From positions 1-55,801 of the forward strand of contig CAYUPY010000003.1 in assembly GCA_964446595.1 (NCBI GenBank): DNA of 55,801 bases, in the 5' to 3' direction. A model generated the notes under the pieces. It was not told the origin of the DNA and did no database searches. It saw nothing but the letters and a program-made list of their open reading frames with translations. The translations under genes were made by a program, and so were the position numbers. This DNA comes from an uncultured Candidatus Saccharibacteria bacterium (GTDB lineage Bacteria > Patescibacteriota > Dojkabacteria > J137 > JAEUSD01). This document shows, in pieces, positions 11,782-50,865 of the stretch. Position 1 is the first letter of the stretch. The number at the start of each line of letters is the position of its first letter.

Positions 11782-13446
11782 CTAGTTAAAATCAATTGTA
11801 TAGGCTAATTTATCAGAAAATCTACCGTTTGAATTGGTTACGACAACCTCAGCACAATTTGGATTCTTATAGTTATTTCTAAACACTGCAAAATCAGCAC
11901 TATCTAGTCGACAATTATTACCTGCCAAATCGAGTGTACAGTTAATATTATCCTGCAAATAATTCTGAGCAAAGACAGTGAAGTCACTAGTACTTACTGC
12001 ACCGTCTTGATCATAGTCTCCGAAACAAAAGTTATCTTGTACACTTTGACTTTCTATGATCTGAAAGTCAATTTCCAGTGGCACCCCAATATTTCCCTGC
12101 TCATCTTTGGGGACGATGCGCAGCGTATGGTTTCCGATTCTTAACTGAGAGAAGTTATAGATATTATCAGCTCCCCCATCCCCCCCGATGGCTAGTGGAG
12201 CATTACCTTCTGTACGAATGTACTGATCATTAAAATAAAAGTCCACTGCAGCTGCTTCTTGGGATAAACCTTCAGCCAAAATAGAAAGGTTGTTTCCAGT
12301 TTGAGTCAGATCTATGATATCGTCATTAACCAGTGTTTTTATATTAACCCCAGTCTCAATATTAACAAGCACTGCCCTGTCTACAGTTATATTGTCAGGC
12401 TCAACTGGCTGCGAAGTTGTCGTTGAGGTAGTTGTGCTTGGCTGGCTGCTGGAGCTACTTATCCCTGCAGGATAAGATCTAGTTACCTGAATTTCATCAA
12501 AATATACGTAGGTATCTGTTTGTGATGGATAGCTACCACCAAAGAATGTACTCATGAAGAGTTTATCGATAGATAAAGAATCAGTTTTTCTGAATTCATA
12601 GTCAGATTTGCTCTGTACCTTAGTTCCGTCCAACCATGTTTCTACAATTCCATTCCTCTTTCCTACATCGTTCATTTTAACTCTAAGAATTATTTGGTAC
12701 CAACGCTCTTTATTATATCTAAACCCATCCCAGCCGTCTGCTTGGCCATAATCACCAGGAGTGTTTGCGTGATAGACATATGTTGAAGCAACTCCTTGAT
12801 TAGTCAGTGCACATTCAAATCCGGGGTAGCACGCACACCCAGCACTACCCGAACTGCAGCTTATATCATGCCAATGCAACCTTACACTCCAACCATTGTA
12901 CCCATCAGTATCATTACCTCCTGAATTACATTCTCCCCCACACAAGCCATTTAATTTGCCGTTTGGAAACCAAGCAAACGTATTGTCAAACTTTATTTTA
13001 TAGCTAAAGTAGAGCTCATCATACTTTTTACCCAAACTATGCTTAAAATCTATCCCCCCACCTTGGGGTAGACGTTGATCCTTATTGTAGAACATCCTGA
13101 GCACTTTCCCTTGCGTAGAATCGTTTACAATACTCAACCACCCATTGTCCAAGCCTGGGCTAGCACTAGGCGAATCCCAATCATCGTTCCATTTGCTTCT
13201 AGTGTAAACTCCTGCTGAGTGGTGCTCAAAATTGTTAAAGTAGACTTTATCATCTTCGCAATCCGACTCACCTTGACAAACTCCAAGAATATCGGGATTG
13301 AACTCTGTATTTACAACGCTAAATTGAATGTAAGCAAAAGCTAGCAATAAAATCGACGCAAGTGTAAGTACGACAAATCTTAGCCTAGAGTAACTTTGCA
13401 TTTGTCCGTTTATAATAACTATAAATAATGGTTTCATCTTATCCAT
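11782..13446 (-). CDS. secreted/anchored PL14-like (concanavalin-fold polysaccharide lyase-like) protein with C-terminal dockerin-like module
   Basis: 554 aa with an N-terminal TM helix. The block GGGIDFKHSLGKKYDELYFSYKIKFD...NGKLNGLCGG...GWSVRLHW...WYQIILRVKMN...NGIVETWLDG...LFMSTFFGG resembles the Polysacc_lyase (PF14099/PL14-like) pattern. S/T linker, then a dockerin-like GDYDQDGAVSTSDFTVFAQNYL...LDSADFAVFRNNY. Confidence 0.65.
   Translation of the reverse strand: MDKMKPLFIVIINGQMQSYSRLRFVVLTLASILLLAFAYIQFSVVNTEFNPDILGVCQGESDCEDDKVYFNNFEHHSAGVYTRSKWNDDWDSPSASPGLDNGWLSIVNDSTQGKVLRMFYNKDQRLPQGGGIDFKHSLGKKYDELYFSYKIKFDNTFAWFPNGKLNGLCGGECNSGGNDTDGYNGWSVRLHWHDISCSSGSAGCACYPGFECALTNQGVASTYVYHANTPGDYGQADGWDGFRYNKERWYQIILRVKMNDVGKRNGIVETWLDGTKVQSKSDYEFRKTDSLSIDKLFMSTFFGGSYPSQTDTYVYFDEIQVTRSYPAGISSSSSQPSTTTSTTTSQPVEPDNITVDRAVLVNIETGVNIKTLVNDDIIDLTQTGNNLSILAEGLSQEAAAVDFYFNDQYIRTEGNAPLAIGGDGGADNIYNFSQLRIGNHTLRIVPKDEQGNIGVPLEIDFQIIESQSVQDNFCFGDYDQDGAVSTSDFTVFAQNYLQDNINCTLDLAGNNCRLDSADFAVFRNNYKNPNCAEVVVTNSNGRFSDKLAYTIDFN
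11854..12027 (-). other. dockerin-like module, copy 1
   Basis: FGDYDQDGAVSTSDFTVFAQNYLQDNINCTLDLAGNNCRLDSADFAVFRNNYKNPNC. A DxDxDGxxxxxD loop plus helix, then a Cys-bracketed second loop plus helix. Confidence 0.6.
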
Positions 13447-13469: not shown

Positions 13470-15761
13470 TTAATAAAATTTTGCTGTATAGACTGAAGCT
13501 TTCCCGTCCTTATACCCTAGGTACCTCACGTTCCCGGTTTCCTGTGTGTATCGTACATCAATCAACAGTGTAGCGGAGGCCGTTGCAGGGATAGTGTAAC
13601 GTCTCCAGGTGGCGCCTTTATCATAACTCCGGTGCAGCGCTGCACCTTCAAATACTGTGATAATCCCTCTATCATCAATCACGATATGACCAGGGTACCT
13701 TCCTGGGTAACTTCCGGCATTCGTCCAGTTATTTCCGTTATAAGTGCGCCAGATTACTTCCCAGTCAGTGCTATCAATCGCAAGGGTGGCAAAAGGTTGG
13801 CCAGTTGGGTAAATACCTAGTCCCGTGTAATTATGCGCTCTTTTAGGCGTTAATGGATCGGTAAGCGCTACTTCTCCAGTTTTGTCGGTCATTGGTAGCT
13901 GGTTGTATGTCTGGCCTTTGGAGTTTTTCCAGGTTTGACCGCCGTCATCGGAACACGCATATAGCACATGTGTGATTGAGTTATTGTTACCACCATCACC
14001 ATCTTTTCCGAAAGCTTGAACACCGGTAGAAACATGCATACGATTGTGTTTATCAAAAATAACACGCGGCTTCATTGGCTGATACATGCGGGAATCTGGG
14101 GTTTTAGCTGACCAGAATAGAGTCGACATTTCATAAGCGTAGTCTCTACCACCTAACTCTACCCACGTTCCCTTCCCATTTGGACTGGCAACGTATTTAT
14201 TTACATCAGCTCCCATATTTTGAGGATTATCTCCTGCGTCGAATCGGACCCGTTCACGATGCGAGAGATAAAGTTCGCCATTACGATCCTTGGCAAAGAA
14301 AGGATATGAGACAAAGCAAGAAACAGGTGTTCTGCTGCCAGTTGTTTCTGGGATTGGGAAGTTTGCCCAGCAGCTCTTTTCTACTGTCCCACGAGGGCCT
14401 TCATCTCCTACGAACTCGAATTCTGTAATGTCGCGTGGACGCTTGGAGATCCAATACTGCCAAGGATAATCTTTATATTCGTATCCTGTCTGATCTTGCA
14501 ACAAGAATGGTGCATAATGAATATTTCCAATGTAGTGAATGTACCCATACTTATCTAGTGCTACAGAACCAATTGAATGGTAAAGGTTTTTTTCAGTTCT
14601 ATCGAGAATTGTATTTGTGGTAATGGTGCCATTTGGCGTCTTCTTCGCAATCTTGGTGTGGTAATTACTACCAACTTTCTCGATATAAATTGCATAAATT
14701 GTGCCATCTGTATCGGTAACTACTGGTGCGGCATAGTCGCCTTGAATAATATCGTCGGCTGGAAACTCCATCTCCTTAACAACATTAATTGACTCTGTAG
14801 GCGTAGGTTCGCTCACACACTCAGGACAGGCAACCACTACTCCACAAGCAGCCTGTGCAATTGTGCCACCTGACGAAGAACTACTTGCTGTCGAGCTTGA
14901 GCTAGGTGAAGAACTTGAGGAAGAGGCCACTGGAACTTCCCAGTCAGGGTTAATGACTAAACTATCAGATTTATAAAGCCGTGCAAACTCTGCTAAGTCT
15001 GCGGCATCTAGCCGACAATTATTTCCTATTAAATCCAGGGTACAATTAATATTACTGGCAAGATAGTTTTGGGCAAAAAGACTCAAATCCGATACGTCTA
15101 CTGCACTATCATTGTCATAGTCACCCCAATAGCGGAAGCTGTAGCTTTGCTCTAGAAGTTCAAATTCTATTGCATCGAAGTCTACATAACCACCGAGTGG
15201 TTCAATACTGAGAACTTGCTCGCCTGAGGACAAATTTATTTCCTGCAGTGCTGCTACCCCTGGTGTGTTCCAATTTGCTACTTGCGGTACGGGTATAGTT
15301 GTAACTGAGGAGCCGTTAATGAGAAAGTTTATTTGCCTACCAGCATCAGCACTATAAGTGTGTAACCTGATACCATATCTACCTTTTACAGGAACATTAA
15401 TAGTATATCTTAGACTCTCACCGGGAAGAAACAGTCCCACAACATGATTCCCAGACTGCGTCGGATGAAGTTTAATATCTACATCTGTATTCTCATCACT
15501 ACGATAAGTAGAATCTAAGCCGTTTCCTGGGGTGTCATCTATATAAGCCCTGCCGTTTACACCGCGATTAAAGTTCTCTGACTCTAGCTGTCCCGCATTG
15601 ACGTTAAAAGGAGTGGAATTAAACGGAGTTCCGGCATCAATTATACCTAGTACTGCCCCTTGATTTACTTGCAAGACGAAAAACAACAGTGTTAGTACTG
15701 CAATTAAAAACAGTAATAATTTTGCTAGTATTAATAATCTTTCCCTTTTGCTAGCGGGCAT
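13470..15761 (-). CDS. anchored CBM6-like + internal dockerin-like + BNR/Asp-box beta-propeller protein (putative glycosidase/lyase)
   Basis: Start at ATG 15761 (MPASKRERLLILAKLLLF..., TM helix), just after the upstream ORF stop; the track ORF extends to 15824. CBM6/35-like ESENFNRG...GRYGIRLHTYSA...VDFDAIEF. Asp-box motifs SDDGGQTW and YDKGATW in the C-terminal half. Possibly BNR_4/GH145-PL42-like, which is a weak call. Confidence 0.65.
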   Translation of the reverse strand: MPASKRERLLILAKLLLFLIAVLTLLFFVLQVNQGAVLGIIDAGTPFNSTPFNVNAGQLESENFNRGVNGRAYIDDTPGNGLDSTYRSDENTDVDIKLHPTQSGNHVVGLFLPGESLRYTINVPVKGRYGIRLHTYSADAGRQINFLINGSSVTTIPVPQVANWNTPGVAALQEINLSSGEQVLSIEPLGGYVDFDAIEFELLEQSYSFRYWGDYDNDSAVDVSDLSLFAQNYLASNINCTLDLIGNNCRLDAADLAEFARLYKSDSLVINPDWEVPVASSSSSSPSSSSTASSSSSGGTIAQAACGVVVACPECVSEPTPTESINVVKEMEFPADDIIQGDYAAPVVTDTDGTIYAIYIEKVGSNYHTKIAKKTPNGTITTNTILDRTEKNLYHSIGSVALDKYGYIHYIGNIHYAPFLLQDQTGYEYKDYPWQYWISKRPRDITEFEFVGDEGPRGTVEKSCWANFPIPETTGSRTPVSCFVSYPFFAKDRNGELYLSHRERVRFDAGDNPQNMGADVNKYVASPNGKGTWVELGGRDYAYEMSTLFWSAKTPDSRMYQPMKPRVIFDKHNRMHVSTGVQAFGKDGDGGNNNSITHVLYACSDDGGQTWKNSKGQTYNQLPMTDKTGEVALTDPLTPKRAHNYTGLGIYPTGQPFATLAIDSTDWEVIWRTYNGNNWTNAGSYPGRYPGHIVIDDRGIITVFEGAALHRSYDKGATWRRYTIPATASATLLIDVRYTQETGNVRYLGYKDGKASVYTAKFY
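14964..15128 (-). other. dockerin-like module, copy 2 (internal position)
   Basis: WGDYDNDSAVDVSDLSLFAQNYLASNINCTLDLIGNNCRLDAADLAEFARLYKSD, located between the CBM6-like domain and the S-rich linker. Confidence 0.6.
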
Positions 15762-16102: not shown

Positions 16103-18730
16103 TTAGTTACAATAACCAGCTTTTTTGTATGCAGCTGAGAATACGGATAGATCGTTTGCATCTAGACGACAGTCTCCTCCGGATAAGTCCAGTCCACAGT
16201 TGATATCACTTCGGAGGTAGTTCTGTGCAAATACAGATAAATCTCCAGCATCTACCTGGCTATCACCAGTATAATCTGCTGCACATGCTGTCACCTCTGA
16301 ATCTTGGATAGCTAAGTCTAAATAGTCAAAGTCCGCGTAATTACCGCCAGCCATCTCAACTCTTATTATGTTCTCGCCTTCTTCTAGACTGATATTAACT
16401 GGTTCGGAAAAAGCTATCTCCTCCCAAGAACCTACTTGTGGTACATTCACGGTAGCTTCTAGCTGGTTGTCAACATAAATTCTTAATTGCCGACCAGCGT
16501 AAATGCTCCTTACTTGAGCTATTAGCTCATAATCCGCAGTCAGATTTGCTTCCACTGTATAGTGTAGCCATTCTCCTTGCTCAAATAGACCGATCACGTA
16601 TCCGGTACCATTAGCGTTTCGCTTCATATCTACATCTCCTCCTCTGTATGTGACTGTGGCGTCTAGTCCATTCCCTGCACTCTTATCATAATATGCACCG
16701 CCATTACTTCCTTCATTAAAATTCTCTGCCTCTAATCTACCAGGGGCACTAACTCCGCCGCCGTATGCCGTACCTGGGTTTCCAATTGTCGATGTGCTAC
16801 TGCTACTTTGAGAGGTAGAGACTGAGCTACTACTCGTCTGCTGCTGACCGCTAGAATTGATTGTCACTATCAAAGCATCATTCGTACCAGATGCAAGATT
16901 GAAACTACCGTTTACAACATTTCCTCCTGGCAGTGTAACTCGCACATCGTAGTCACCGTGAAAGCCACGGAAGTTGGCAACGCCACTAGCGTTGGTTGTG
17001 GCCGTCACCTCAGTGCTCCATTCATCACGCAATGCCTGATAGCGACGGCCAGCAGCGTTAACTGTCCAGTTTTGTTCAACAATTGCGGCATCATCGCGCC
17101 AGTGCTGCCCATCCCAGAATCCCCACATTAAAATACCGCCAACGTTACGGTGGCTAAACGCAGTACGATAAAGATTTTCTAGGCTATCTGCAGCTTCATT
17201 TTTATTTTGGTAATCTTGGTCAAACTCTGTCACCCAAATTGGAGTGTTGCCAAGCTCCTGAGTTAGTCGTTCGAAGCGATAGTAGACATCATTAGGATTA
17301 ATTGGCTTATTGGCTTCAAAGTGACCCTGCACACCAAGTAAGTCTACCTGTCCACCTGCGGCTCTTAAGTTTTTTACTAACTGAATATATGCATCTAATC
17401 TATCACCTCCACTATACGATCTAGGAGAAATTACATGATAGTCGTTCACAGTTGCCTTCACATCAGGATCAAGCTGCTTCACACGCTTGTGCATCCTAGC
17501 GGTCATTGGAATACCGTAGAAGTTACCATGCGTCATTTCATTATTAATATCCCAATGCTCTAAATAGTCCGCATAGCGAGGAACAACAGCATTAATATGC
17601 TCCATTACCTCAGCTTCTAATTCTGAATTTCCTCCATCTTTTTCTTGTTGGCTAGTTCTATCTGACAAGGCATGTACCCATGGAGGATCAAAATCACGGT
17701 AGGTAACTCCCCAGACTAGTGAGTGTCCGCGCATCCTTAAACCATTCTTGCGTGAAAAATCAACCAAATTATCTGCTCTTTCAAAGTCCACTCTATCACG
17801 AGAGTACTCAAAAGCAGGCCATTTGTGTCTACTTTCGGCCACTGTCCAATTAAAGTTCTCCACCACAAAACGCTCATAAGTATTAAGCGAAGAAGGTGTA
17901 CCGTTCTTCCAATCTTGAATTTGATTAATATTTATCGCAGTACCAAAAGCGAACTCGTTATTTGTCTGCGTAATTGCCACGTTTGCACCCGAAATAGGAT
18001 TACCGCTTCCACTCACTACTCTGACTTGCAGGTCTCGTTTCCGAATTTGTTCTATTCTGGCGTTTGCATCCGCTTTCCAGTCGCCAGTACCACCACCTAA
18101 TTTATACATCACCACGTCATCTACATAAAAATCGCCGGTGGATGTACCTGAGCTTTCAATATAAAGTCTCATCCCACTTAAACTACCCGACTGCTGGTGA
18201 TTATAAGTGCCTTTTAGTTGCACCCAACTTCCTGAACCTACAGTCTCGGTGTCAATCCCAACATAGCTTGTAGAACTATCGTTTCTTCGCATTGTCAGCT
18301 TCAGGCTTTGGCTACCGGAGGCAGATCGTACGTAAGCATAAACCTCGTAAATACCTCCCTGTTGAAAGCTGGAGGTAGGAAGGTTTTGACCTGGACCATG
18401 GTAGGTCTCAGATCTGTTAGATACTAGTAGTGATTGACAACCAGAATTCTTTTGATTGGAAACTGCTGTAATTGTACCGCCACCTGATGTCCACCCAACA
18501 ATTCCATCCTCAAAACTAGAGTTTTGCACAAAATTCCCATTTACGTCTTCATGTTGAGAAGCACAACCAAGCACATCTGAATCATTAACGGGGGATGGGT
18601 TGGAAAAGTTGCCATTAATCCACCAGGAAACTAATATTAGTAAACCAATAGATGCTAATAGTAGTGGTATTTGTAAATACTTGGGTAGGTTAATGTACAA
18701 TTTTTCTTTCACTATACAAGGATAAAGCAA
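16103..18730 (-). CDS. modular GH10 endo-beta-1,4-xylanase (CBM4_9/22-like + GH10 + Ig-like + CBM6-like + dockerin-like)
   Basis: 875 aa with an N-terminal TM helix. CBM4_9 pattern NSSFEDGIVGW...FYVDDVVM. GH10 pattern FAFGTAI...ENFNWTVAESRHKW...RMRGHSLVWG...WDINNEM (acid/base Glu) ...LLGVQGHF...IWVTEFD (nucleophile Glu). CBM6-like RLEAENFNEG...ADFDYLDL. The start codon is uncertain (TTG 18730 or GTG 18712). Confidence 0.85.
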   Translation of the reverse strand: MLYPCIVKEKLYINLPKYLQIPLLLASIGLLILVSWWINGNFSNPSPVNDSDVLGCASQHEDVNGNFVQNSSFEDGIVGWTSGGGTITAVSNQKNSGCQSLLVSNRSETYHGPGQNLPTSSFQQGGIYEVYAYVRSASGSQSLKLTMRRNDSSTSYVGIDTETVGSGSWVQLKGTYNHQQSGSLSGMRLYIESSGTSTGDFYVDDVVMYKLGGGTGDWKADANARIEQIRKRDLQVRVVSGSGNPISGANVAITQTNNEFAFGTAININQIQDWKNGTPSSLNTYERFVVENFNWTVAESRHKWPAFEYSRDRVDFERADNLVDFSRKNGLRMRGHSLVWGVTYRDFDPPWVHALSDRTSQQEKDGGNSELEAEVMEHINAVVPRYADYLEHWDINNEMTHGNFYGIPMTARMHKRVKQLDPDVKATVNDYHVISPRSYSGGDRLDAYIQLVKNLRAAGGQVDLLGVQGHFEANKPINPNDVYYRFERLTQELGNTPIWVTEFDQDYQNKNEAADSLENLYRTAFSHRNVGGILMWGFWDGQHWRDDAAIVEQNWTVNAAGRRYQALRDEWSTEVTATTNASGVANFRGFHGDYDVRVTLPGGNVVNGSFNLASGTNDALIVTINSSGQQQTSSSSVSTSQSSSSTSTIGNPGTAYGGGVSAPGRLEAENFNEGSNGGAYYDKSAGNGLDATVTYRGGDVDMKRNANGTGYVIGLFEQGEWLHYTVEANLTADYELIAQVRSIYAGRQLRIYVDNQLEATVNVPQVGSWEEIAFSEPVNISLEEGENIIRVEMAGGNYADFDYLDLAIQDSEVTACAADYTGDSQVDAGDLSVFAQNYLRSDINCGLDLSGGDCRLDANDLSVFSAAYKKAGYCN
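16106..16285 (-). other. dockerin-like module, copy 3
   Basis: CAADYTGDSQVDAGDLSVFAQNYLRSDINCGLDLSGGDCRLDANDLSVFSAAYKKAGYCN at the C-terminus of the GH10 protein. Confidence 0.6.
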
Positions 18731-37079: not shown

Positions 37080-37337
37080 TTAGTTAGTCCCTATGGCGGC
37101 GAGTACAAAAGAGGCAACAGCAAAACTAGTGATTAAAATTATTGTCGAATTATAAAGCCAAGCCTCTAATCCACGGCGAGACCGATAAACCTCAGCCGAA
37201 GAGCTACTACCACCAAAGGTTGTACCTAAGCCACCAGACCTTACCTGAAGTAAGATAACCACCATGATCGCTACCGAAATACCGGCAATTAAGTACTTTA
37301 AAATTATTTCGATTTGTGAAATTAACTCCGGATTCAT
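37080..37337 (-). CDS. secG: preprotein translocase subunit SecG
   Basis: 85 aa with two TM helices around LLQVRSGGLGTTFGGSSSS...RRGLE. GGAGG Shine-Dalgarno 6-7 nt upstream. TAATG overlap with the upstream gene. Confidence 0.72.
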   Translation of the reverse strand: MNPELISQIEIILKYLIAGISVAIMVVILLQVRSGGLGTTFGGSSSSAEVYRSRRGLEAWLYNSTIILITSFAVASFVLAAIGTN

Positions 37338-37753
37338 TATTTTCCTCCACTTTTTTGCAAAGACTTTAGCCCTAGTACACTAAGTGAGATTAAGACAGTG
37401 GCCAGCACCATTGTTTGTACTGGATTAAACTTTAGTGCCCCAGAAGTAACAATAGGTCTTAAATTAATGGTTGTTTGACCAATACTTCCCAAGCCAAAGA
37501 TACCTTGCTGTAAAATAAACATAAATATAAAAATTACTATTAGAGCCATTAAGAAAGTGGCCCCGTTATTTACAGGTACTTTAAAAAACTTCAGAATAGA
37601 AGGAATAGAAGCGATTAGCAATCCAAATAGCAAACCAGACCCTATGTTAATAAGGATATTGTTATTTGATCCAGCAATGTTAATGCCATTGAAAAAATTT
37701 AAGAAAAAATAAAACAACAAGGCGTTTATTATCACTTCGTATAAAAATTTCAT
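37337..37753 (-). CDS. small polytopic membrane protein (YvlD/phage_holin_4_2-like architecture)
   Basis: Start MKFLYEVIINALLFYFF at 37753; the track ORF extends to 37810. Four hydrophobic segments. The family call is weak. Confidence 0.45.
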   Translation of the reverse strand: MKFLYEVIINALLFYFFLNFFNGINIAGSNNNILINIGSGLLFGLLIASIPSILKFFKVPVNNGATFLMALIVIFIFMFILQQGIFGLGSIGQTTINLRPIVTSGALKFNPVQTMVLATVLISLSVLGLKSLQKSGGK

Positions 37754-37808
37754 GTATTCTGAATAACAAATTTTGCTTATTTTAGCACCAAACACTAATA
37801 TATTAAAC

Positions 37809-38588
37809 ATGGATTATCCGACCTTCAATTTGTTCGATGTTGTTGTGCCCAAGATTGAAGCACAGAGTTACGACGGTATCTCTCAGCCAACCTTTGGCCT
37901 ACTTGATATCGCTGAAGGTGAAAATCAGGCAGAACTTAACTTTACCACCGATACCACCTCTCCTGCAGTAGGTGAGACCTTTACTGTGGATGTGGAAATT
38001 TCTACAAAAGACTTTACTATTAATGAGTACCAGATAATTGTAGATTTTGACACTACTAAGCTTAGTGTACTTGATTCAGAACCAGATACCGCAGGAACCC
38101 AAGTTGAGTTTCTAGACTTAGTATACGTGGTAGAACCAGGAGATAATAACGTCCAGGATGGCAGAATAACATTAATTGCCCGTACTCCTTCCGGCAACGC
38201 GCTACAGGTCAACAGGGCTGTAGCTAGAATCACATTTCAATCACAAGAACAGGGAGTAACGGTCATTGAACCAGTAGCTACCTTCGAAGGTACAAAACTA
38301 ATTAATCAAAATGGTGTAGTTATAGACGCCAGCTTAAATAGCTTAACTCTCAATGTTGGCTCCGCAAGAACTAGTAGCGCGACCTCCACTAGCTCAAGTA
38401 CCTCTGCAAACGCGACTACCACTAGCGCCACTAGTTCATCTAGCGGACCAACTCAACCACCTGATCAAATACCTAACACAGGCATTTTTGATGATGGAGG
38501 GCTTGCAATACTGCCGCTTGCTATTGGTTTATTACTCGTAGTAGTAGGTGCACGACTAAGAGGTGAAGCAAAAAAGGGCAAGCCTTAG
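37809..38588 (+). CDS. cohesin-like domain protein with S/T linker and C-terminal IPNTG sortase-type sorting signal
   Basis: Cohesin-like pattern GETFTVDVEISTKDFTINEYQIIVDFDTTKLSVLD...DGRITLIARTPSG...ARITFQSQEQG...LNVG (nt 37929..38360). S/T linker. IPNTG + hydrophobic helix + RLRGEAKKGKP (nt 38469..38585). No obvious N-terminal signal peptide. Confidence 0.6.
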   Translation: MDYPTFNLFDVVVPKIEAQSYDGISQPTFGLLDIAEGENQAELNFTTDTTSPAVGETFTVDVEISTKDFTINEYQIIVDFDTTKLSVLDSEPDTAGTQVEFLDLVYVVEPGDNNVQDGRITLIARTPSGNALQVNRAVARITFQSQEQGVTVIEPVATFEGTKLINQNGVVIDASLNSLTLNVGSARTSSATSTSSSTSANATTTSATSSSSGPTQPPDQIPNTGIFDDGGLAILPLAIGLLLVVVGARLRGEAKKGKP

Positions 38589-38592
38589 AATT

Positions 38593-39546
38593 ATGAGCAG
38601 CTTACGCAAAATCAGCCGTAGCCGTAACTTTATGAACACCGGTATTACCTTGAGTATCGCCATAGGAGATGAAGTTAGTACAGTAGATGCGCTAGATGCG
38701 ATCGAGCTCGCCTTCGGCGAGTTCGATCGCATCGTAAAACTTTACACCCGCTTCAATGATACCAGTGAATTATCCAAATTAAATGCAGCCAGCAAAACAG
38801 GCCCTAGTTGGTACCCGGTTAGTAAAGAATTTCAGTTTCTAATTCAGACTATGCTTGACCTGGCCGCACAATCGAAAGGAGCCTTTGACCCTACTATAAT
38901 TGACTTTCTAGAAGAGTATGGCTATGACAAACACTATAACTTTAGAAAATTAGAGGAAGACAATTTGACTAGCAGGATCTCGACATTGGCTTCTACCCGC
39001 CCTAGTTGGCGGGAAATTGAGGTCAGGCCTCTAGAGGTAAAGCTGGCCCAGGGACAGCGCCTAGATTTAGGCGGCATCGGCAAAGGTTACGCTATGGATT
39101 GTGCCGCCGCTCATTTAGCTCAGTTTAAGAATTACCTGATCAATGCTGGTGGAGACTTAATCTGCCAGGGTGTAAATGAGATGGGAGAACCTTGGCAGTT
39201 AGCGCTTAAACACAAACATGAAGATCAAGAGATAATTATTGGTAAGTTCCAAGCTGAAAAACCTGAAAGCCCTGTGGCGTTAGGATGCTCTGGATCATGG
39301 GCTAGAAAAGTAAAAGATTTTCATCACCTGCTTCATCCCAGCTCTGGGAAGCCGGTAGCTGAGTTAGCTACCGTATTTGTGACTGCTCCCACAGCGATGT
39401 TAGCTGACGGTTGGGCCACTGCACTTTTTGTAGGAGGCAAAGAATTGTTACCTGTAATCCCTAAGGGTTATGAAGCGGTTTTAGTGAGCCATGACGGCCA
39501 AATTACCGGAACTCCGGCTTTAATTGAAAAGCTATTCCCTAAGTAA
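38593..39546 (+). CDS. apbE: FAD:protein FMN transferase (ApbE family)
   Basis: Motifs FMNTGITLSI, FDPTI, LDLGGIGKGYAMD, ADGWATALFV. The start at 38593 follows the upstream stop. Confidence 0.8.
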   Translation: MSSLRKISRSRNFMNTGITLSIAIGDEVSTVDALDAIELAFGEFDRIVKLYTRFNDTSELSKLNAASKTGPSWYPVSKEFQFLIQTMLDLAAQSKGAFDPTIIDFLEEYGYDKHYNFRKLEEDNLTSRISTLASTRPSWREIEVRPLEVKLAQGQRLDLGGIGKGYAMDCAAAHLAQFKNYLINAGGDLICQGVNEMGEPWQLALKHKHEDQEIIIGKFQAEKPESPVALGCSGSWARKVKDFHHLLHPSSGKPVAELATVFVTAPTAMLADGWATALFVGGKELLPVIPKGYEAVLVSHDGQITGTPALIEKLFPK

Positions 39547-39599: not shown

Positions 39600-39947
39600 A
39601 TGCCGATTGCACCAAGTAGTGATGAAATTTTAACTAATACCCGCACATTTCTGCATAAGCAGGGACTAAACGAGAATGTGGAAGCAGAAGATAGATTAGA
39701 GAAGATCTTTGAGATCCTGGCAGCCAGCCGAAACACTGCTAGCGCGCTTTATAACTGGGAACCTCCTCAGGGAAAAGGACTGCCACGTAAAATAAAGAAC
39801 TTCATTCAGCTTAAGCTCAAAAACATTATTCTAAATACTTTAGAGAAGTATGTGATGAGACAACAGAAGTATAACGAGGTCGTCTACCAAGCATTACTAG
39901 AGATCAAAACAGAAATCAGGAGTTCAGATCATGGCCATCGCGACTAA
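39600..39947 (+). CDS. hypothetical 115-aa protein preceding the large glycosyltransferase
   Basis: ORF only. Its 3' end overlaps the next gene by 17 nt. Helical, K/E-rich. Confidence 0.4.
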   Translation: MPIAPSSDEILTNTRTFLHKQGLNENVEAEDRLEKIFEILAASRNTASALYNWEPPQGKGLPRKIKNFIQLKLKNIILNTLEKYVMRQQKYNEVVYQALLEIKTEIRSSDHGHRD

Positions 39948-44684: not shown

Positions 44685-46514
44685 ATGTTAGTTTTATTTT
44701 CCTATACTGAATGTGATAAATTAGCCAAAAACAGAGTGAAACAACAATACAACCGCTTTCAACTTGCCATCATCACCGGTATTAGCATTATGCTAATAGG
44801 TGTTTTATTTGCATACTTCCAGTTAAGTAGCTTTGGAGCAAATAACGCAGGCCGAAATAACAACGTGGCCTTAAATGTCTCCAATAATGTTGCACTTACT
44901 GGTGGTGGTACTGGAGTTGTAGTAGAGATCACAAGCGATGACTTTGTGGCAACTACAGGTAGTGGTGTTTTAAATATTGCAGAATTGGTGATCGAATTTG
45001 ATAATACAATACTAAGGCTAGATGACATGCAGGCTAATTCAAGTCTTCTAGCTCTTAACGAAAATATAAACAACTCAAACGGAAGCGCTACTATTGATTT
45101 GGCTCAACCAGTAACCGAATTCCCTGCTGGTACTACACTTGTAACGTTGACTTTTGCAGCCTTAGAGCAGACAGATACCGTTGTTAGTCTTGACCATAGT
45201 ACTACTTGGGGATACCCAAACCGTATGAATTTCGCAGCTAGCAATACTGACTTTGATGTCGACTTCCCTGAACCTTCAAGTAGTGCCACAACTAGCTCAT
45301 CTACTGCTAGCGGTTGTGCTAATACAGCAGTAGGCAATGGACGTTCACATCAGATCTGTGCAAACTACTTTATATTGCAAGCTGAAGACTTCAATAATGG
45401 CGGGAACGGCGTGGGATACAATGATCTTGACGCTATGGCTACTGATAGTGAATATGATCCAAACTATCGTTCAGGTGAAACTGTTGATGTAAAAGCTCCA
45501 GTAAATGGAGTACGTGCCGTGGGTTATAACCGTGCAGGTGAATGGTTAAACTTCACAGTTAATGTTCCTCAGGCGGGTGCTTACAGAGTAACTGCACGAG
45601 TCGCTATGGATAGTAGTTCCGGTCAGCTTGGCGTTGCAGTAAACGGTGGGTCTAACGTGGCGACCGGTACAGTACCAAATACAGGCAACTACAATACATT
45701 TGCTGATCTAGTGTTGAATAATAACGTAACCTTAGCCGCCGGTTCTCAGACAATCCGATTTAATGTTATTCAACAGTACTTTGATATCGATTACCTGAGA
45801 TTTGATCTTGTAGCTGCATCAAGCTCATCAACAAGCACTAGTACCTCTACAGCAACAACATCGTCAGCTACAACGACTACAACTAGCTCTGTATCAACAA
45901 CAACAACAACAACAACAACAACTAGCGTCTCTACAACCACGAGTTCTGCGACAACTAGTTCAGTAAGTACAACTACAAGTAGTTCTAGCAGCTCAGCTGG
46001 TTCTGATATCTCTAGATTGTATAGATTCTACAACACTGCAACTGGTGCACACTTCTTTACCCCAGATGAGGGACAGGCATTAAGAGTCTGTGAAAGATTT
46101 GTACCTCCATTCCAGAATGAGAGTATCGGATTCTATGTATATGGCAACCCAGGTGCTGGAAGAATCCCTGTATACCGATTCTACAACCCAAGTAAAGGTA
46201 CCCACCTATACATGAGCGGAGATGAGGGGAAAAGAGCAATTACAGAAGACCCTAGATTCAATACTGTATATCAAATCGAACCGATTACTGGAGAACCAGC
46301 ATTCTATGTAAACGCAGAAGCAGCTGGAACCCCAGTATATAGATTCTACAATGCGAAAACTGGTGCTCACTTTTACACCGCATCAATTACACAAAGGAAT
46401 ACACTGTTGACCAACCCATTGTTCTCAGCATTCCAATATGAAGGTGTTAAGTACTATGTACCAGCCGGGCCAAACGGTAGTGAAGGCTACACATGTCCTC
46501 AAGCCGCACAGTAG
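44685..46514 (+). CDS. anchored modular protein: cohesin-like + CBM6-like + long S/T linker + 3 DUF5648-type repeats
   Basis: 609 aa with a TM helix (LAIITGISIMLIGVLFAYF). Cohesin-like GVVVEITSDDFVATTGSGVLNIAELVIEFDNTILRLDD...GSATIDLAQP...TLVTLTFAALEQ (about nt 44901..45210). CBM6-like QAEDFNNGG...GAYRVTARVA...FDIDYLRF (45369..45806). Repeats at 46011..46463. Confidence 0.65.
   Translation: MLVLFSYTECDKLAKNRVKQQYNRFQLAIITGISIMLIGVLFAYFQLSSFGANNAGRNNNVALNVSNNVALTGGGTGVVVEITSDDFVATTGSGVLNIAELVIEFDNTILRLDDMQANSSLLALNENINNSNGSATIDLAQPVTEFPAGTTLVTLTFAALEQTDTVVSLDHSTTWGYPNRMNFAASNTDFDVDFPEPSSSATTSSSTASGCANTAVGNGRSHQICANYFILQAEDFNNGGNGVGYNDLDAMATDSEYDPNYRSGETVDVKAPVNGVRAVGYNRAGEWLNFTVNVPQAGAYRVTARVAMDSSSGQLGVAVNGGSNVATGTVPNTGNYNTFADLVLNNNVTLAAGSQTIRFNVIQQYFDIDYLRFDLVAASSSSTSTSTSTATTSSATTTTTSSVSTTTTTTTTTSVSTTTSSATTSSVSTTTSSSSSSAGSDISRLYRFYNTATGAHFFTPDEGQALRVCERFVPPFQNESIGFYVYGNPGAGRIPVYRFYNPSKGTHLYMSGDEGKRAITEDPRFNTVYQIEPITGEPAFYVNAEAAGTPVYRFYNAKTGAHFYTASITQRNTLLTNPLFSAFQYEGVKYYVPAGPNGSEGYTCPQAAQ
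46011..46463 (+). repeat. 3 x YRFYN..(T/K)G.H(F/L)(F/Y) repeats (DUF5648-type), protein 1 of 3
   Basis: RLYRFYNTATGAHFFT..., VYRFYNPSKGTHLYM..., VYRFYNAKTGAHFYTASITQRN...FQYEGVKYYVP. Confidence 0.7.
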
Positions 46515-46598: not shown

Positions 46599-47771
46599 CT
46601 ACTTTAACAGGCTTTTAGCCAGATTCATGAAAGGCCTTTCAATAAAGGCGTATATGGGAATAGATACCGCGATGGAGAATACGGTAGCTACTAAGAATAG
46701 TGGGGCGCCTAACGGCACCAAATTAGTAGCCTTAAAGTACTCAATAATGAAATCATGGGTAAGGTAAACGCTAAAGCTAATTGTACCGACAAATCTTAAT
46801 GGAAAGGACGCAAACAAACGGAATATAAGACTGCGGCGGTTGTAAATCAATAGTAGCATTAATACCATAGTAAAAAGACTAACTAACAAACTGCCTGTGT
46901 CCCCGTACGGATAACTCAGTCCAAAAAAGTCTAACGGAGCACTAGCGCCATTAAAAAGAACATATAAAGTATTCTTATTTAAGGCAAGTAAAGCAATTAT
47001 CATCACAGCGGCTACTCCATCAGCAAGAATGCTTATTAATCTTGAAGAAGTAAACAACTTAGTAATACGTGGTCGTGCTGAAGCCCACACCGCCACCAAA
47101 ATACCCACAATAAAGATATCTAAATGCCATTTACGCACGCTTATGACGCCCTCAGTGCCAGGGACCAGCCACTGAAAACCAAATACCTCTTTGGTAACGA
47201 AAATATGTGCAAAAGCAATTAATAGAAGCAAGATAATATTGGTTAACCAAAAGCGATATTTTGTTAATCTGTATACCACGAACATGATCACCGGTAGGAA
47301 CACGTAAAAGAGAACCTCTTGCTGGATAGTCCAAAAAATACCATCGCCTCGTATTAATAGAAGATGGCGTAGAATATCTGCCGAATACCAAAAACGTAGC
47401 AACCCTATAACCAATACCACAATTGCAAATAGCGGGTAAATACGCAGGATTCTTTTGGTAAAATAGTTGATGAGCGCGCTTAGCTGAAAAGCTTTACCTC
47501 TTTTCTCTAGGAACTGAGAGCTAAGCAAAAATGCACTTAAAATAAAGAAAATATAGACTCCTACCCTTCCGATTCCATATGCACCAAAAGCCACAGAATG
47601 CTCGACTATGACCATTAGCGCGGCGAAGCCGCGCAATCCATCAAGCGCCGTGTTTCTTTCTTCAGATTGGGCAGGAAATCGAAGGGTGTCGCGAAAGGCA
47701 GCCGCTATATCAGTTTGTAGGAACCTTGTAAGCCTCTCCTTCATAATCAAATGCTTCGAAACGTGGATCAT
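46599..47771 (-). CDS. acyltransferase family 3 (OafA/YrhL-like O-acyltransferase) membrane protein
   Basis: LDGLRGFAALMVIVEHS plus about 10 hydrophobic segments. The start is either ATG 47771 or 47744; both overlap the 3' end of the upstream gene. Confidence 0.8.
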   Translation of the reverse strand: MIHVSKHLIMKERLTRFLQTDIAAAFRDTLRFPAQSEERNTALDGLRGFAALMVIVEHSVAFGAYGIGRVGVYIFFILSAFLLSSQFLEKRGKAFQLSALINYFTKRILRIYPLFAIVVLVIGLLRFWYSADILRHLLLIRGDGIFWTIQQEVLFYVFLPVIMFVVYRLTKYRFWLTNIILLLLIAFAHIFVTKEVFGFQWLVPGTEGVISVRKWHLDIFIVGILVAVWASARPRITKLFTSSRLISILADGVAAVMIIALLALNKNTLYVLFNGASAPLDFFGLSYPYGDTGSLLVSLFTMVLMLLLIYNRRSLIFRLFASFPLRFVGTISFSVYLTHDFIIEYFKATNLVPLGAPLFLVATVFSIAVSIPIYAFIERPFMNLAKSLLK

Positions 47772-50700: not shown

Positions 50701-50865
50701 ACTAAAAGCACCTAGTGCGTTAGTCTTTACATCCGTATTGGCTGAAACGTTAGTGTAAATAAAGAACGCTACAATAATTAATATCGCAGCGATTGCTATT
50801 GCTTTGAGATTTTTAAGGTGTTGTAATACTTCCATAGTCTGGTACATAATATGCAATTCCTTCAT
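47710..50865 (-). CDS. anchored modular protein: DUF5060-like beta-sandwich + putative glycoside-hydrolase-like region + 2 FN3 + 3 DUF5648-type repeats
   Basis: 1051 aa with a TM helix (AIAIAAILIIVAFFIY). The N-terminal pattern YGEWEISGVAYNGNPYDIDATAVFTG...VKMFYDGD...WKFRFNGDLTGEW resembles DUF5060. Two FN3 domains (ITDYIVEYK...YSFRVKAQN). An alternative start at 50835 (MEVLQHL) is possible. Confidence 0.62.
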   Translation of the reverse strand: MKELHIMYQTMEVLQHLKNLKAIAIAAILIIVAFFIYTNVSANTDVKTNALGAFSGPTQITQFYPYGEWEISGVAYNGNPYDIDATAVFTGTSGAANGQVRTVKMFYDGDSGSTQGIWKFRFNGDLTGEWSIATTSDDIGTGDVNGDLDGWAGSVTVVANANNVLKRGFVVPNTANPNKWSRSGLDGNYAFSPTFVMAASPSEYFFTPGKLEGDLDLFVYNHNQTAEAQTNHGFDGFNLPVYCRWFDIAAVDGECDTTGPNQFNNFNKRNPDRRTFEALEQVINHTYERGGMTHLWLWGNTLEDQNLNDGSYSEGLIGSTTANRLYEYIVARLGAVPGWTMGFGNNLDEWAFNPEIEYWYDYMESESTWMHLLTSQGKYNPNTLTAGDATADRIDGELNNNTDRLLPLDDIPANDDNGTTFDRQVGLTSNELNTYSWADSQPSYNLLLNLLGSVPPSGGAVQPHFSELRFMVGDYDASNAYTYLMAGRGQAYLAMTGGIASIWGNVGSPFDENIIDGTSTSLPFDLANHFAGSVSNVDAARQHPGGDTTAYSARQHLLNRAIIVNRYLKADMVNCTASVIRDSEDGSAGFSLNDGSGVCLESPSTGDELIIIYEEEVGPANPGNTNIQLDLSNPNYTAVKNARAIDLRASTYSELNITGSISNTAVESWSPASGASDWVLILNVDDGNSPPDPIIDLTAIQQDQAVLLNWTEPNDQGTLIDNYQVEYRDYTNPGSPGAWSSPFLTNSISNTFTAGNPDFTLVVGNTYQFRVAAINNEGTATYDDPGSYAEATIVTIPNDVADLAAVEDGANAIELTWSAPSNGGAVITDYIVEYKLTSAPDTDYTIFDDGILGSTGATVAGLQSNTDYSFRVKAQNVAGVSANYSNVATATTAIGLPSSTPLYRFYNPSTSAHFYTSSASQRNRVINDFPAFDYEGQRGLVFTSGLTGNPDIVPVFRFYNASTGAHFYTASTDQRDRVISDFPQFEYESVAFYVYRSSYGGTGAQSVYRFYNTEAGVHFYTNKVSERDTILNDPRFEAFDYEGEAYKVPTN
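47713..48168 (-). repeat. 3 x DUF5648-type repeats, protein 2 of 3
   Basis: LYRFYNPSTSAHFYTSSASQRN..., VFRFYNASTGAHFYTASTDQRD..., VYRFYNTEAGVHFYTNKVSERD...FDYEGEAYKVP. Confidence 0.7.

What the first reader, a model, noticed from the sequence alone, without database searches (positions are those of the whole stretch)
37773..38588. Cohesin-like protein with IPNTG sortase-type sorting signal but no visible signal peptide: candidate wall-anchored mini-scaffoldin
The protein consists of one cohesin-like beta-sandwich (GETFTVDVEISTKDFTINEYQIIVDFDTTKLSVLD...DGRITLIARTPSG...ARITFQSQEQG), an S/T linker and a C-terminal tripartite signal. The signal is IPNTG + hydrophobic helix (GLAILPLAIGLLLVVVGA) + basic tail (RLRGEAKKGKP), the architecture of a sortase substrate. 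That is what an anchoring scaffoldin for the dockerin-like enzymes at 11.8-18.7 kb would look like. The oddity is the N-terminus, whether from ATG 37809 or TTG 37773, which is not hydrophobic. There is therefore no recognisable Sec signal, and a sorting signal is meaningless without export. The ATG at 37809 is also interlocked with a divergent minus-strand ATG (CATG at 37808..37811). No sortase gene is present in the window.
Basis: partly seen in the sequence, partly recalled or inferred. Interest (0 to 1): 0.7.

Follow-up and report, generated by a model that had tools for sequence, protein, structure and literature searches.

The report
Flavin-transferase-linked cohesin-fold surface protein
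This gene belongs to a large, undescribed family of small anchored proteins in ultra-small (CPR/Patescibacteria) bacteria whose steady gene partner is a flavin-attaching enzyme, so it is more likely a flavin-carrying envelope protein than a cellulosome scaffold, and how it leaves the cell without a signal peptide is unknown.

Summary
The ORF at 37809-38588 (+) encodes 259 aa: a cohesin-fold beta-sandwich (AlphaFold pLDDT >90; the 50 best PDB matches listed are all cohesins), an S/T linker, and IPNTG + hydrophobic helix + basic tail. It has no Sec-type N-terminus. This is not truncation: relatives have stop codons 2-3 codons upstream of the same start.

It is one member of a large Patescibacteria family: 749 clusters at E<=1e-3, about 100 with this architecture. 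Two points change the interpretation.

- **Conserved N-terminal element.** It is an 8-residue motif, D-x-x-[A/S]-x-P-[T/S]-[F/I] (here DGISQPTF, T28), not the weakly hydrophobic leader. The motif is in register with the ApbE flavinylation motif D-x-x-[S/T]-G-A-[S/T].
- **Gene neighbour.** The next gene downstream is a signal-peptide-less ApbE flavin transferase in 12 of 19 distinct loci, including members only ~25% identical with unrelated flanks.

My best reading is a candidate new ApbE substrate, C-terminally anchored by a sortase-type signal and probably surface-exposed. Flavinylation, export route and sortase processing are all inferred. The scaffoldin idea is only partly supported. The fold and sorting signal hold up. 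Binding to the local dockerin-like modules is untested and is unlikely to be the family's conserved role.

The parts
37809..38588 (+). CDS of the cohesin-fold, C-terminally anchored protein (259 aa plus stop)
37809..37862 (+). Short N-terminal leader M1-A18 (MDYPTFNLFDVVVPKIEA), ending in a V/I-x-A|Q site. Weakly hydrophobic and not a Sec h-region. Its length in the family is mostly 9-16 aa, and it is absent in a few members.
37872..37895 (+). Invariant N-terminal motif D22-G-I-S-Q-P-T28-F29. Family consensus: D(85%)-x-[IVL]-[A/S]-[Q/S]-P(100%)-T/S(91%/9%)-F/I. It is in register with the ApbE flavinylation motif D-x-x-[S/T]-G-A-[S/T]. The candidate modified residue is T28 (37890-37892).
37926..38363 (+). 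Cohesin-like beta-sandwich domain (residues 40-185)
38364..38468 (+). Ser/Thr-rich low-complexity linker (residues 186-220). Some relatives carry Cys-rich, Dickkopf-like inserts here.
38469..38483 (+). IPNTG, an LPXTG-like pentapeptide. Family consensus: [ILT]-P-[DNK..]-[TS]-[AGS].
38499..38585 (+). Hydrophobic helix GLAILPLAIGLLLVVVGA (38499-38552) followed by the basic tail RLRGEAKKGKP (38553-38585)
38593..39546 (+). ApbE family FAD:protein FMN transferase gene. It starts 4 nt after the stop of the cohesin-like gene and has no signal peptide or lipobox. This gene pair is conserved in 12 of 19 distinct loci.
37337..37753 (-). Divergent 4-TM membrane protein (weak PF04020 match). Its real start is at 37753, not 37810. 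It is conserved next to SecG in one context type and is probably not part of the system.
11893..12018 (-). Dockerin-like module at the C-terminus of the PL14 protein. It is a candidate ligand, not a shown one.
14997..15122 (-). Dockerin-like module inside the CBM35/BNR protein
16151..16276 (-). Dockerin-like module at the C-terminus of the GH10 xylanase-like protein

Best explanation
The gene encodes a member of a large Patescibacteria-specific protein family. The parts, from N to C, are a flexible N-terminal tag, a cohesin-fold beta-sandwich, a Ser/Thr stalk and an LPXTG-like sorting signal (IPNTG + helix + basic tail).

The gene is co-transcribed with, and functionally coupled to, the ApbE flavin transferase immediately downstream. 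The most likely mechanism is that ApbE uses FAD to attach FMN by a phosphoester bond to the conserved Thr of the N-terminal motif (D-G-I-S-Q-P-T28). The flavinylated protein is then held at the cell envelope by its C-terminus.

The charge distribution, the stalk and the sorting signal argue that the sandwich faces outward. There a sortase would cut after T224 and link it to the wall. The protein would then be a tethered redox carrier rather than a cellulosome scaffold.

Shown:
- the ORF and its true N-terminus;
- the predicted fold;
- family-wide conservation of both terminal motifs;
- the conserved gene pair;
- the absence of signal peptides on both proteins.

Inferred:
- flavinylation of T28;
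- outward topology;
- the export route, which is unknown and not a classical Sec signal peptide;
- sortase processing.
For: **Gene pair.**
- ApbE lies directly downstream on the same strand in 12 distinct loci. Spacing runs from a 23-nt overlap to a 44-nt gap.
- These loci span members down to about 25% identity to the window protein.
- The outer neighbourhoods differ: SecG/SBP5, an ATP synthase operon, and Metallophos/SMC.

**Control.**
- None of 80 generic ApbE loci has a family member nearby.

**Motif.**
- D(-6), P(-1) and T/S(0) are conserved in 127 of 135 representatives.
- The motif survives in members that lack the hydrophobic leader altogether.
- In all CPR loci fetched up to that point (L001-L020 and the window), the motif pattern occurs only in these genes.
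- It has the same 7-residue register as the ApbE motif, D at the first position and S/T at the last. ApbE tags work best at a terminus (PMC12052999).
- No canonical D..[ST]GA[ST] substrate exists in the window or in the 15 related CPR loci (L001-L015) scanned.

**Enzyme.**
- The window ApbE matches Pfam at E 8.7e-48 and solved FMN transferases at E about 1e-18.
- The GKGYA, HH..P and AD..T motifs are invariant.

**Outward topology.**
- An acidic stretch precedes the helix and a tail with 3-6 K/R follows it.
- The stalk is S/T/P/N-rich.
- Some members have Cys-rich, Dickkopf-like linker inserts.
- The C-terminus gives sub-threshold LPXTG-anchor HMM hits.
- Sortase is reported in more than half of CPR genomes (PMC6744442).
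Against: - The motif is not the canonical one. G-A before the Thr is replaced by Q-P or S-P, and Ala usually replaces S/T at -3. No ApbE has been shown to accept this.
- Seven of 19 loci (the Dojkabacteria-type clade) have no ApbE within 10 kb. There the gene lies between a divergent GT2 and infA-rpsM-rpoA.
- Both the protein and its ApbE lack signal peptides. A cytoplasmic enzyme with an exported substrate has no precedent that I know of.
- No sortase was found in the window or in the flanks of loci L001-L015.
- No FMN-binding domain (PF04205), DUF2271 or DUF3570 was detected.
Confidence: 0.5

Rival explanations
1. The protein is a wall-anchored mini-scaffoldin whose cohesin binds the dockerin-like modules of the GH10, PL14 and BNR/CBM35 enzymes at 11.8-18.7 kb. 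It would display them on the cell surface.
For: - The fold is cohesin-like.
- The C-terminal signal is sortase-type.
- Three secreted enzymes in the window carry a duplicated D-x-D-x-D-G...F loop module whose best database matches are dockerins.
Against: - The dockerin matches are all sub-threshold, with E between 0.05 and 1.
- The word-indexed search of 5.8 billion proteins found only one fragment with this module. The cohesin-like family has 749 clusters.
- The family's conserved neighbour is ApbE, or GT2/infA, and never a carbohydrate-active enzyme.
- Apart from the window itself, none of the 15 loci scanned (L001-L015) carries a dockerin-like module in its flanks.
- No docking could be run.
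Confidence: 0.15
2. The protein is a tail-anchored, cytoplasm-facing membrane protein. With no signal peptide it is never exported. The C-terminal helix inserts post-translationally. The cytosolic ApbE flavinylates the N-terminal tag. The flavoprotein then works on the inner face of the membrane. On this reading IPxTG is a conserved juxtamembrane hinge, not a sortase site.
For: - Neither the protein nor its ApbE has a signal peptide.
- There is a single helix at the extreme C-terminus.
- Cytosolic ApbEs with cytosolic substrates are known, as in the Klebsiella fumarate reductase (PMC12052999).
- This topology removes the export paradox.
Against: - The charges flanking the helix are strongly biased, acidic before and 3-6 K/R after. 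That predicts the tail inside and the N-terminal domain outside.
- The stalk is S/T/P/N-rich, and some members have disulfide-type Cys-rich inserts.
- P and T of the pentapeptide are invariant at the distance from the helix expected for a sortase signal, with sub-threshold LPXTG model hits.
- Cohesin folds are otherwise extracellular.
Confidence: 0.2
3. The ApbE adjacency is operon hitch-hiking. The conserved Thr is used for something else, such as O-glycosylation by the neighbouring glycosyltransferases. The protein would be a structural or adhesive wall protein with no cofactor.
For: - Seven loci lack ApbE and instead have an orthologous GT2 divergently upstream.
- GT4, GT2 and GtrA genes are frequent nearby.
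- The motif deviates from the canonical ApbE motif at the two residues before the Thr.
Against: - The pair persists while all the other neighbours change, and the genes often overlap.
- The register and the D / S-T ends of the motif match the ApbE motif.
- No other candidate ApbE substrate is visible in the window or loci L001-L015, the sequences scanned for the canonical motif.
Confidence: 0.13
4. The gene is a 5'-truncated pseudogene, has a mis-called start, or is an assembly artefact that has lost its signal peptide.
For: Only the absence of a hydrophobic N-terminus.
Against: - The same short N-terminus occurs in about 100 cluster representatives from independent samples.
- In-frame stops lie 2-3 codons upstream of the start in several loci.
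- The N-terminal 30 residues are among the most conserved parts of the protein.
Confidence: 0.01

Closest known systems
ScaE-type anchoring scaffoldin of Ruminococcus flavefaciens: a single cohesin with a sortase LPXTG signal (recalled from my own knowledge). It stands for cohesin modules in general (PF00963; e.g. PDB 2jh2, 6kgf, 1qzn).
   Same: One cohesin-fold beta-sandwich, a low-complexity stalk, and an LPXTG-type pentapeptide with a hydrophobic helix and basic tail. The 50 best Foldseek hits listed are all cohesins.
   Different: - ScaE has a normal signal peptide and a known X-dockerin partner.
- Here there is no signal peptide.
- The sequence does not reach the Pfam Cohesin threshold.
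- No partner is shown.
- The conserved gene neighbour is a flavin transferase.
[quoted passage not shown]
   Same: In a single-membrane bacterium, a small envelope-tethered protein is encoded next to an ApbE-family enzyme, with a Thr-containing flavinylation site.
   Different: - PplA uses FMN-binding domains (PF04205) with the canonical [S/T]GA[S/T] motif and is exported by a lipoprotein signal.
- FmnB acts outside the cytoplasm.
- Here the fold is cohesin-like, the motif is D-x-x-A/S-Q-P-T, the anchor is sortase-type, and the ApbE has no export signal.
DUF2271 and DUF3570, ApbE substrates discovered through gene neighbourhood (Meheust et al. 2021, PMC8238504)
   Same: An uncharacterised domain family identified as a likely ApbE substrate. 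The grounds are conserved adjacency to apbE and a conserved Thr motif.
   Different: - Those families carry the canonical [S/T]GA[S/T] motif and signal peptides, and their flavinylation was demonstrated.
- That survey removed genes without a predicted signal peptide and found CPR 'strikingly underrepresented'. This pair would therefore have been filtered out.
Cytoplasmic ApbE with the soluble fumarate reductase of Klebsiella pneumoniae (PMC12052999)
   Same: An ApbE without a signal peptide that modifies a co-occurring substrate which also lacks a signal peptide.
   Different: That substrate is a soluble cytoplasmic enzyme with an FMN-binding domain and no membrane anchor or sorting signal.

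Membership tests
Cohesin (PF00963) | Nine-stranded jelly-roll beta-sandwich fold | tested here: met
   The AF2 model built from the 21-sequence alignment has pLDDT >90 over residues 40-185. The 50 best Foldseek PDB hits listed are all cohesins, with E 7.6e-9 to 1.7e-6 and TM (target-normalised) 0.36-0.78.
Cohesin (PF00963) | Sequence match to the family model above its gathering score | tested here: not met
   The window protein gives no Cohesin hit at E<=1. Four of 21 relatives hit weakly, best E 7e-6. The family profile against PDB has ScaB cohesins as best hits, at only E 0.035.
Cohesin (PF00963) | Binds a dockerin module | not testable with these tools
The local dockerin-like modules are sub-threshold.
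Sortase substrate (LPXTG cell-wall sorting signal, TIGR01167 / PF00746) | Pentapeptide LPXTG-like motif, then a hydrophobic segment, then a basic tail at the C-terminus | tested here: met
   IPNTG + 18 hydrophobic residues + RLRGEAKKGKP. The family pattern [ILT]-P-x-[TS]-[AGS] occurs in 121 of 135 representatives.
Sortase substrate (LPXTG cell-wall sorting signal, TIGR01167 / PF00746) | Match to curated sorting-signal models | tested here: inconclusive
   - TIGR01167: 9 of 70 members, best listed score 13.6 bits against a cut-off of 15.9.
- NF053819: 15 of 70 members, best 23 bits against a cut-off of 47. The match covers the C-terminal 60 residues.
- PF00746: 2 of 21 members, E 1.5e-4.
- The window protein itself gives no hit.
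Sortase substrate (LPXTG cell-wall sorting signal, TIGR01167 / PF00746) | N-terminal Sec signal peptide | tested here: not met
   The hydropathy maximum is 0.67 over 15 residues. Seven of the eight exported or membrane proteins of the window compared give 2.6-3.3. Only 3 of 135 representatives, all distant, have a hydrophobic N-terminus.
Sortase substrate (LPXTG cell-wall sorting signal, TIGR01167 / PF00746) | A sortase encoded in the same genome | not testable with these tools
   None was found in the window or in the flanks of loci L001-L015. The literature reports a sortase family in more than half of CPR genomes (PMC6744442).
ApbE flavinylation substrate | Sequence motif D-x-x-[S/T]-G-A-[S/T] with the last residue modified | tested here: not met
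   The window has D-G-I-S-Q-P-T. The family consensus is D-x-[IVL]-[A/S]-[Q/S]-P-[T/S]. The register and both end residues are kept, but G-A is replaced. This is a variant, not the canonical motif.
ApbE flavinylation substrate | Conserved genomic association with an apbE gene | tested here: met
   apbE lies immediately downstream in 12 of 19 distinct loci, across divergent members and varied flanks. None of 80 control ApbE loci has a family member nearby.
ApbE flavinylation substrate | Known substrate domain (FMN_bind PF04205, DUF2271, DUF3570, NqrB/RnfD) | tested here: not met
   No such Pfam hit in the window protein or in the 21 relatives.
ApbE flavinylation substrate | Covalently bound FMN on the Thr | not testable with these tools
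   This needs co-expression, UV fluorescence and mass spectrometry.
Bacterial tail-anchored membrane protein | No signal peptide, with a single helix within about 30 residues of the C-terminus | tested here: met
   The helix spans residues 231-248 of 259, and the N-terminus has no hydrophobic segment.
Bacterial tail-anchored membrane protein | N-terminal domain in the cytoplasm, short C-tail translocated | tested here: inconclusive
   The charge bias (acidic before the helix, 3-6 K/R after) and the Cys-rich or S/T-rich stalks argue against this topology. There is no experimental topology.

The most novel reading that the evidence does not exclude
Patescibacteria possess an undescribed envelope flavoprotein system. 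A cytoplasmic, signal-peptide-less ApbE attaches FMN to a non-canonical N-terminal tag (D-x-x-A/S-Q-P-T) on a cohesin-fold protein. That protein is then exported without a Sec signal peptide, by a route that recognises the short conserved leader or the modified tag. Finally a sortase fixes it to the wall. This would amount to a new ApbE substrate class, a new recognition motif and a non-classical export path for a sortase substrate.
Probability: 0.22. Interest if true: 0.85.

Novelty: new variant of a known kind. Interest (0 to 1): 0.72.

Why it matters
**Extracytosolic redox chemistry in CPR.** CPR/Patescibacteria make up a large share of bacterial diversity, yet their envelope biology is almost unknown. 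The main survey of protein flavinylation found them 'strikingly underrepresented'. That survey discarded genes without signal peptides, and it noted that some ApbE substrates remain unidentified (PMC8238504). A family-wide pairing of a signal-peptide-less ApbE with a cohesin-fold, sortase-type-anchored protein would do three things:
- give CPR a candidate extracytosolic redox carrier;
- widen the ApbE recognition motif, which matters for flavin-tagging technology;

**Annotation.** The result also warns against annotating lone cohesin folds as cellulosome parts.

Tried and rejected
**Longer N-terminus or truncation.** Rejected. In-frame stops lie just upstream of the start.

**Leader as a double-glycine (C39) leader, a type IV prepilin-like N-terminus, or a Tat signal.** Considered from the alignments and rejected.
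- The -2 residue is variable.
- No long hydrophobic helix follows.
- There is no RR motif.
- The acidic residue is not fixed.

**Leader as a general export signal shared with other proteins.**
- A profile of the leader hits only the family's own genes in about 290 kb of CPR DNA.
- The database-wide attempt failed: query too short, then nothing at E<=10.

**Pam pilins of CPR (bioRxiv 10.64898/2026.03.03.709456).** Different. They have signal peptides, two domains and donor-strand exchange.

**The divergent 4-TM 'holin-like' neighbour as an exporter.** It is conserved only in one context type and belongs with SecG.

**Searches that gave little.**
- Dockerin module search: one fragment only.
- Reverse test with ApbE against metagenome contigs: returned only generic ApbEs of 26-36% identity. 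These served as a negative control, not as a test of the CPR clade.
- Promoter and terminator scan: uninformative.
- Single-sequence AF2 model: useless, pLDDT 39.8.
- Literature searches: no paper links cohesin domains to CPR surface proteins, or ApbE to LPXTG or cohesin proteins.
Full report
**1. The observation**

- The ORF is real. It runs from TTG 37773 or ATG 37809 to the stop at 38586-38588 on the + strand. An in-frame stop at 37764-37766 caps any N-terminal extension at 12 codons.
- A search of 5.8 billion proteins returned 21 relatives of 237-273 aa. One is named Candidatus Doudnabacteria.
- In their alignment the start Met, at the position of ATG 37809, is invariant.
- In related loci, in-frame stops lie 2-3 codons upstream of that start. 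In Dojkabacteria the start is a GTG with a stop two codons before it.
- The gene is therefore not truncated and the short N-terminus is genuine.
- The best 15-residue hydropathy window in the N-terminus is 0.67, and 0.4-1.1 in relatives. Seven of the eight exported or membrane proteins of the same window that I scored give 2.6-3.3. The exception, the SBP_bac_5 protein (1.37), has its hydrophobic segment beyond the 70 residues scanned.
- The C-terminus reads IPNTG-IFDDG-GLAILPLAIGLLLVVVGA-RLRGEAKKGKP.
- No sortase is detectable in the window.
- The 'interlocked' CATG is incidental. Homologues of the divergent 4-TM gene start at the equivalent of the ATG at 37753.

**2. The fold**

- The window protein does not reach any Pfam or NCBIfam model.
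- Four of 21 relatives give weak Cohesin hits. The family profile's best PDB hits are ScaB cohesins at E 0.035.
- A single-sequence AlphaFold model was useless.
- The alignment-based model gives a beta-sandwich over residues 40-185 with pLDDT >90. Residues 1-36 are disordered and there is a C-terminal helix.
- Foldseek against the PDB lists 50 best matches, all cohesins, with E from 7.6e-9 and target-normalised TM of 0.36-0.78. The lowest values are for two-cohesin or multi-module chains.
- The cohesin fold is supported at the level of structure. Membership by sequence is sub-threshold.

**3. A large family**

- An exhaustive profile search of 1.84 billion cluster representatives found 749 proteins at E<=1e-3 and 148 at E<=1e-10.
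- About 100 of the best 150 are 220-330 aa with the same architecture.
- Of 135 small representatives, 121 carry [ILT]-P-x-[TS]-[AGS] + helix + basic tail. Only three, all distant, have a hydrophobic N-terminus.
- More distant multi-cohesin proteins from other bacteria do have classical signal peptides. The absence is thus a trait of this family, not a gene-calling habit.
- Genome records carrying the family are labelled Dojkabacteria, Doudnabacteria and 'uncultured Candidatus Saccharibacteria'. These are all CPR/Patescibacteria.
- C-terminal regions give sub-threshold hits to LPXTG-anchor models.
- Some members have Cys-rich, Dickkopf-like inserts in the linker. Together with the acidic-before, basic-after charge pattern around the helix, this argues for an outward-facing domain.

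**4. The N-terminus**

- The leader (M..LI[ED]LLIPKVxA|Q) is mostly 9-16 residues long. It ends like the c-region of a signal peptide, but its hydrophobic stretch is far too short.
- A few members lack the leader completely.
- The invariant element is the following 8-residue motif: D (85%)-x-[IVL]-[A/S]-[Q/S]-P (100%)-T/S (91%/9%)-F/I. It is found in 127 of 135 representatives, at a median position of 23.
- The leaderless members keep this motif.
- In all ORFs of 90 aa or more in the window and the 20 CPR loci fetched by then, the pattern occurs only in these genes. In 337 kb of control DNA it occurs once.

**5. The conserved partner**

- In the window, an ApbE-family gene starts 4 nt after the stop. 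It matches Pfam at E 8.7e-48 and solved FAD:protein FMN transferases at E about 1e-18.
- The same arrangement, from a 23-nt overlap to a 44-nt gap, occurs in 12 distinct loci:
  - window
  - L002/L003
  - L004/L011
  - L005/L006
  - L007
  - L015
  - L016
  - L017
  - L018
  - L019
  - L020
  - the contig of P0061

- These loci include members only about 25% identical to the window protein. Their outer neighbours are unrelated: Metallophos/SMC in one case and an ATP synthase operon in another.
- Seven other loci form a second context: an orthologous GT2 divergently upstream, then the family gene, then infA, rpsM, rpsK, rpsD and rpoA. No ApbE lies within the flanks.
- All seven aligned partner ApbEs lack a signal peptide or lipobox and keep the family's conserved motifs.
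- As a control, none of 80 generic ApbE loci from metagenomes has a family member nearby.

**6. Connecting the two findings**

- ApbE recognises a 7-residue motif, D-x-x-[S/T]-G-A-[S/T], and transfers FMN to the last residue. Substitutions of G or A reduce flavinylation but do not abolish it. Tags work best at a protein terminus. Cytoplasmic ApbEs exist (PMC12052999).
- The family motif has the same register and the same first and last residues. The window copy is D-G-I-S-Q-P-T.
- No canonical motif occurs in any ORF of the window or of loci L001-L015, the sequences fetched when that scan was run.
- The large survey of flavinylation removed genes without predicted signal peptides. It found CPR strikingly underrepresented and noted that substrates remain unidentified (PMC8238504).
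- I therefore read this family as a candidate new ApbE substrate with a variant tag. This is an inference from gene neighbourhood and motif register, not a demonstration.

**7. What remains unexplained**

- A cytoplasmic-type ApbE and a substrate without a signal peptide fit a cytoplasmic reaction.
- The rest of the protein (charge bias, stalk, Cys-rich inserts, LPXTG-like signal, cohesin fold) points outward.
- Two resolutions are possible:
  - The protein is modified inside and then exported by a non-classical route.
  - It is a tail-anchored, inward-facing flavoprotein and the sorting-signal resemblance is misleading.
- I favour the outward topology at about 65:35. I cannot name the export route.
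- The leader is not a double-glycine, prepilin or Tat signal, and it is not shared with neighbouring genes.

**8. The scaffoldin idea**

- The three enzyme-borne modules do look like duplicated calcium-loop dockerins. Their matches are sub-threshold.
- This variant is rare in the databases.
- Binding could not be modelled.
- The window protein may still bind them in this organism. However, the family's breadth and its conserved partners make enzyme display unlikely to be the conserved function.

**9. Novelty**

- No Pfam or NCBIfam model covers the family. Sources call its members hypothetical.
- The paper library holds nothing that links cohesin domains to CPR surface proteins, or ApbE to LPXTG or cohesin proteins.
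- The CPR Pam pilins are different proteins.
- I class the family as a new variant of known kinds (ApbE substrate, sortase-type anchored protein), with an unresolved export problem that could turn out to be more than that.

Noticed in passing
window 11893-12018, 14997-15122, 16151-16276 (all - strand): Three secreted carbohydrate-active proteins (PL14, CBM35/BNR, GH10+CBM) share a roughly 45-residue module, DYDxDGxVxxxDxxxFAQNYL...INCxLDLxGxxCRLDxxDxxxF. The conserved core has two invariant Cys (INC, CRLD) and two of the three copies have further flanking Cys. It is dockerin-like but sub-threshold. The word-indexed protein search found almost nothing like it.
   Followed up: partly
window 44685-46514 (+), 47710-50865 (-), 50813-52774 (-): Three secreted proteins (CBM6 protein, FN3/DUF5060 protein, S8 subtilase) all end in a DUF5648 module. 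It could be a shared wall-binding or docking module, and hence another candidate ligand for a surface receptor.
   Followed up: no
window 21896-23464 (-) and 24821-26329 (-): Two class-I Trp/Tyr-type aminoacyl-tRNA synthetase genes carry N-terminal fusions. One has a tRNA_bind domain. The other has a YbaK/ProX-type tRNA_edit domain, which looks like an unusual partner for a W/Y synthetase.
   Followed up: no
window 37790-37808; also L001, L004 and L005 just upstream of the start codon: A TATATT/TATAAT-like box lies about 6-12 nt upstream of the ATG in several loci, and no Shine-Dalgarno sequence is visible. This would fit a leaderless or nearly leaderless mRNA.
   Followed up: no
L001, L008, L009, L010, L013, L014, L101 (family gene near position 10000, or as listed): In one clade the family gene sits between a divergent orthologous GT2 glycosyltransferase and the infA-rpsM-rpsK-rpsD-rpoA cluster. 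This suggests strong constitutive expression and perhaps glycosylation of the S/T stalk. Whether these genomes have ApbE elsewhere is unknown.
   Followed up: partly
window 38593-39546 and partner genes in L002, L004, L005, L016-L018: The ApbE enzymes paired with this family all start about 10 residues before the conserved FMNT.I.I strand. They have no signal peptide or lipobox, unlike typical ApbEs.
   Followed up: yes
window 7641-11762 (-): This 1373-aa protein has DUF2341, a LamG-like domain and five FN3 repeats. It has an N-terminal signal anchor and a C-terminal helix with a basic tail, but no LPXTG-like pentapeptide. Anchoring by a C-terminal helix alone therefore also occurs in this genome.
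   Followed up: no
L004 9923-10000: In one Doudnabacteria locus, the 26 in-frame codons upstream of the ATG encode a hydrophobic stretch (NILSLIFVAVGGLKTIPIGVIPIIYI) without a canonical start codon. It may be chance, or possibly a relic of a lost signal peptide.
   Followed up: no
window 39600-39947 (+): A small ORF of 115 aa with no Pfam hit follows ApbE. It is conserved in L002, L004, L005 and L007, but not in the more distant ApbE-linked loci.
   Followed up: partly
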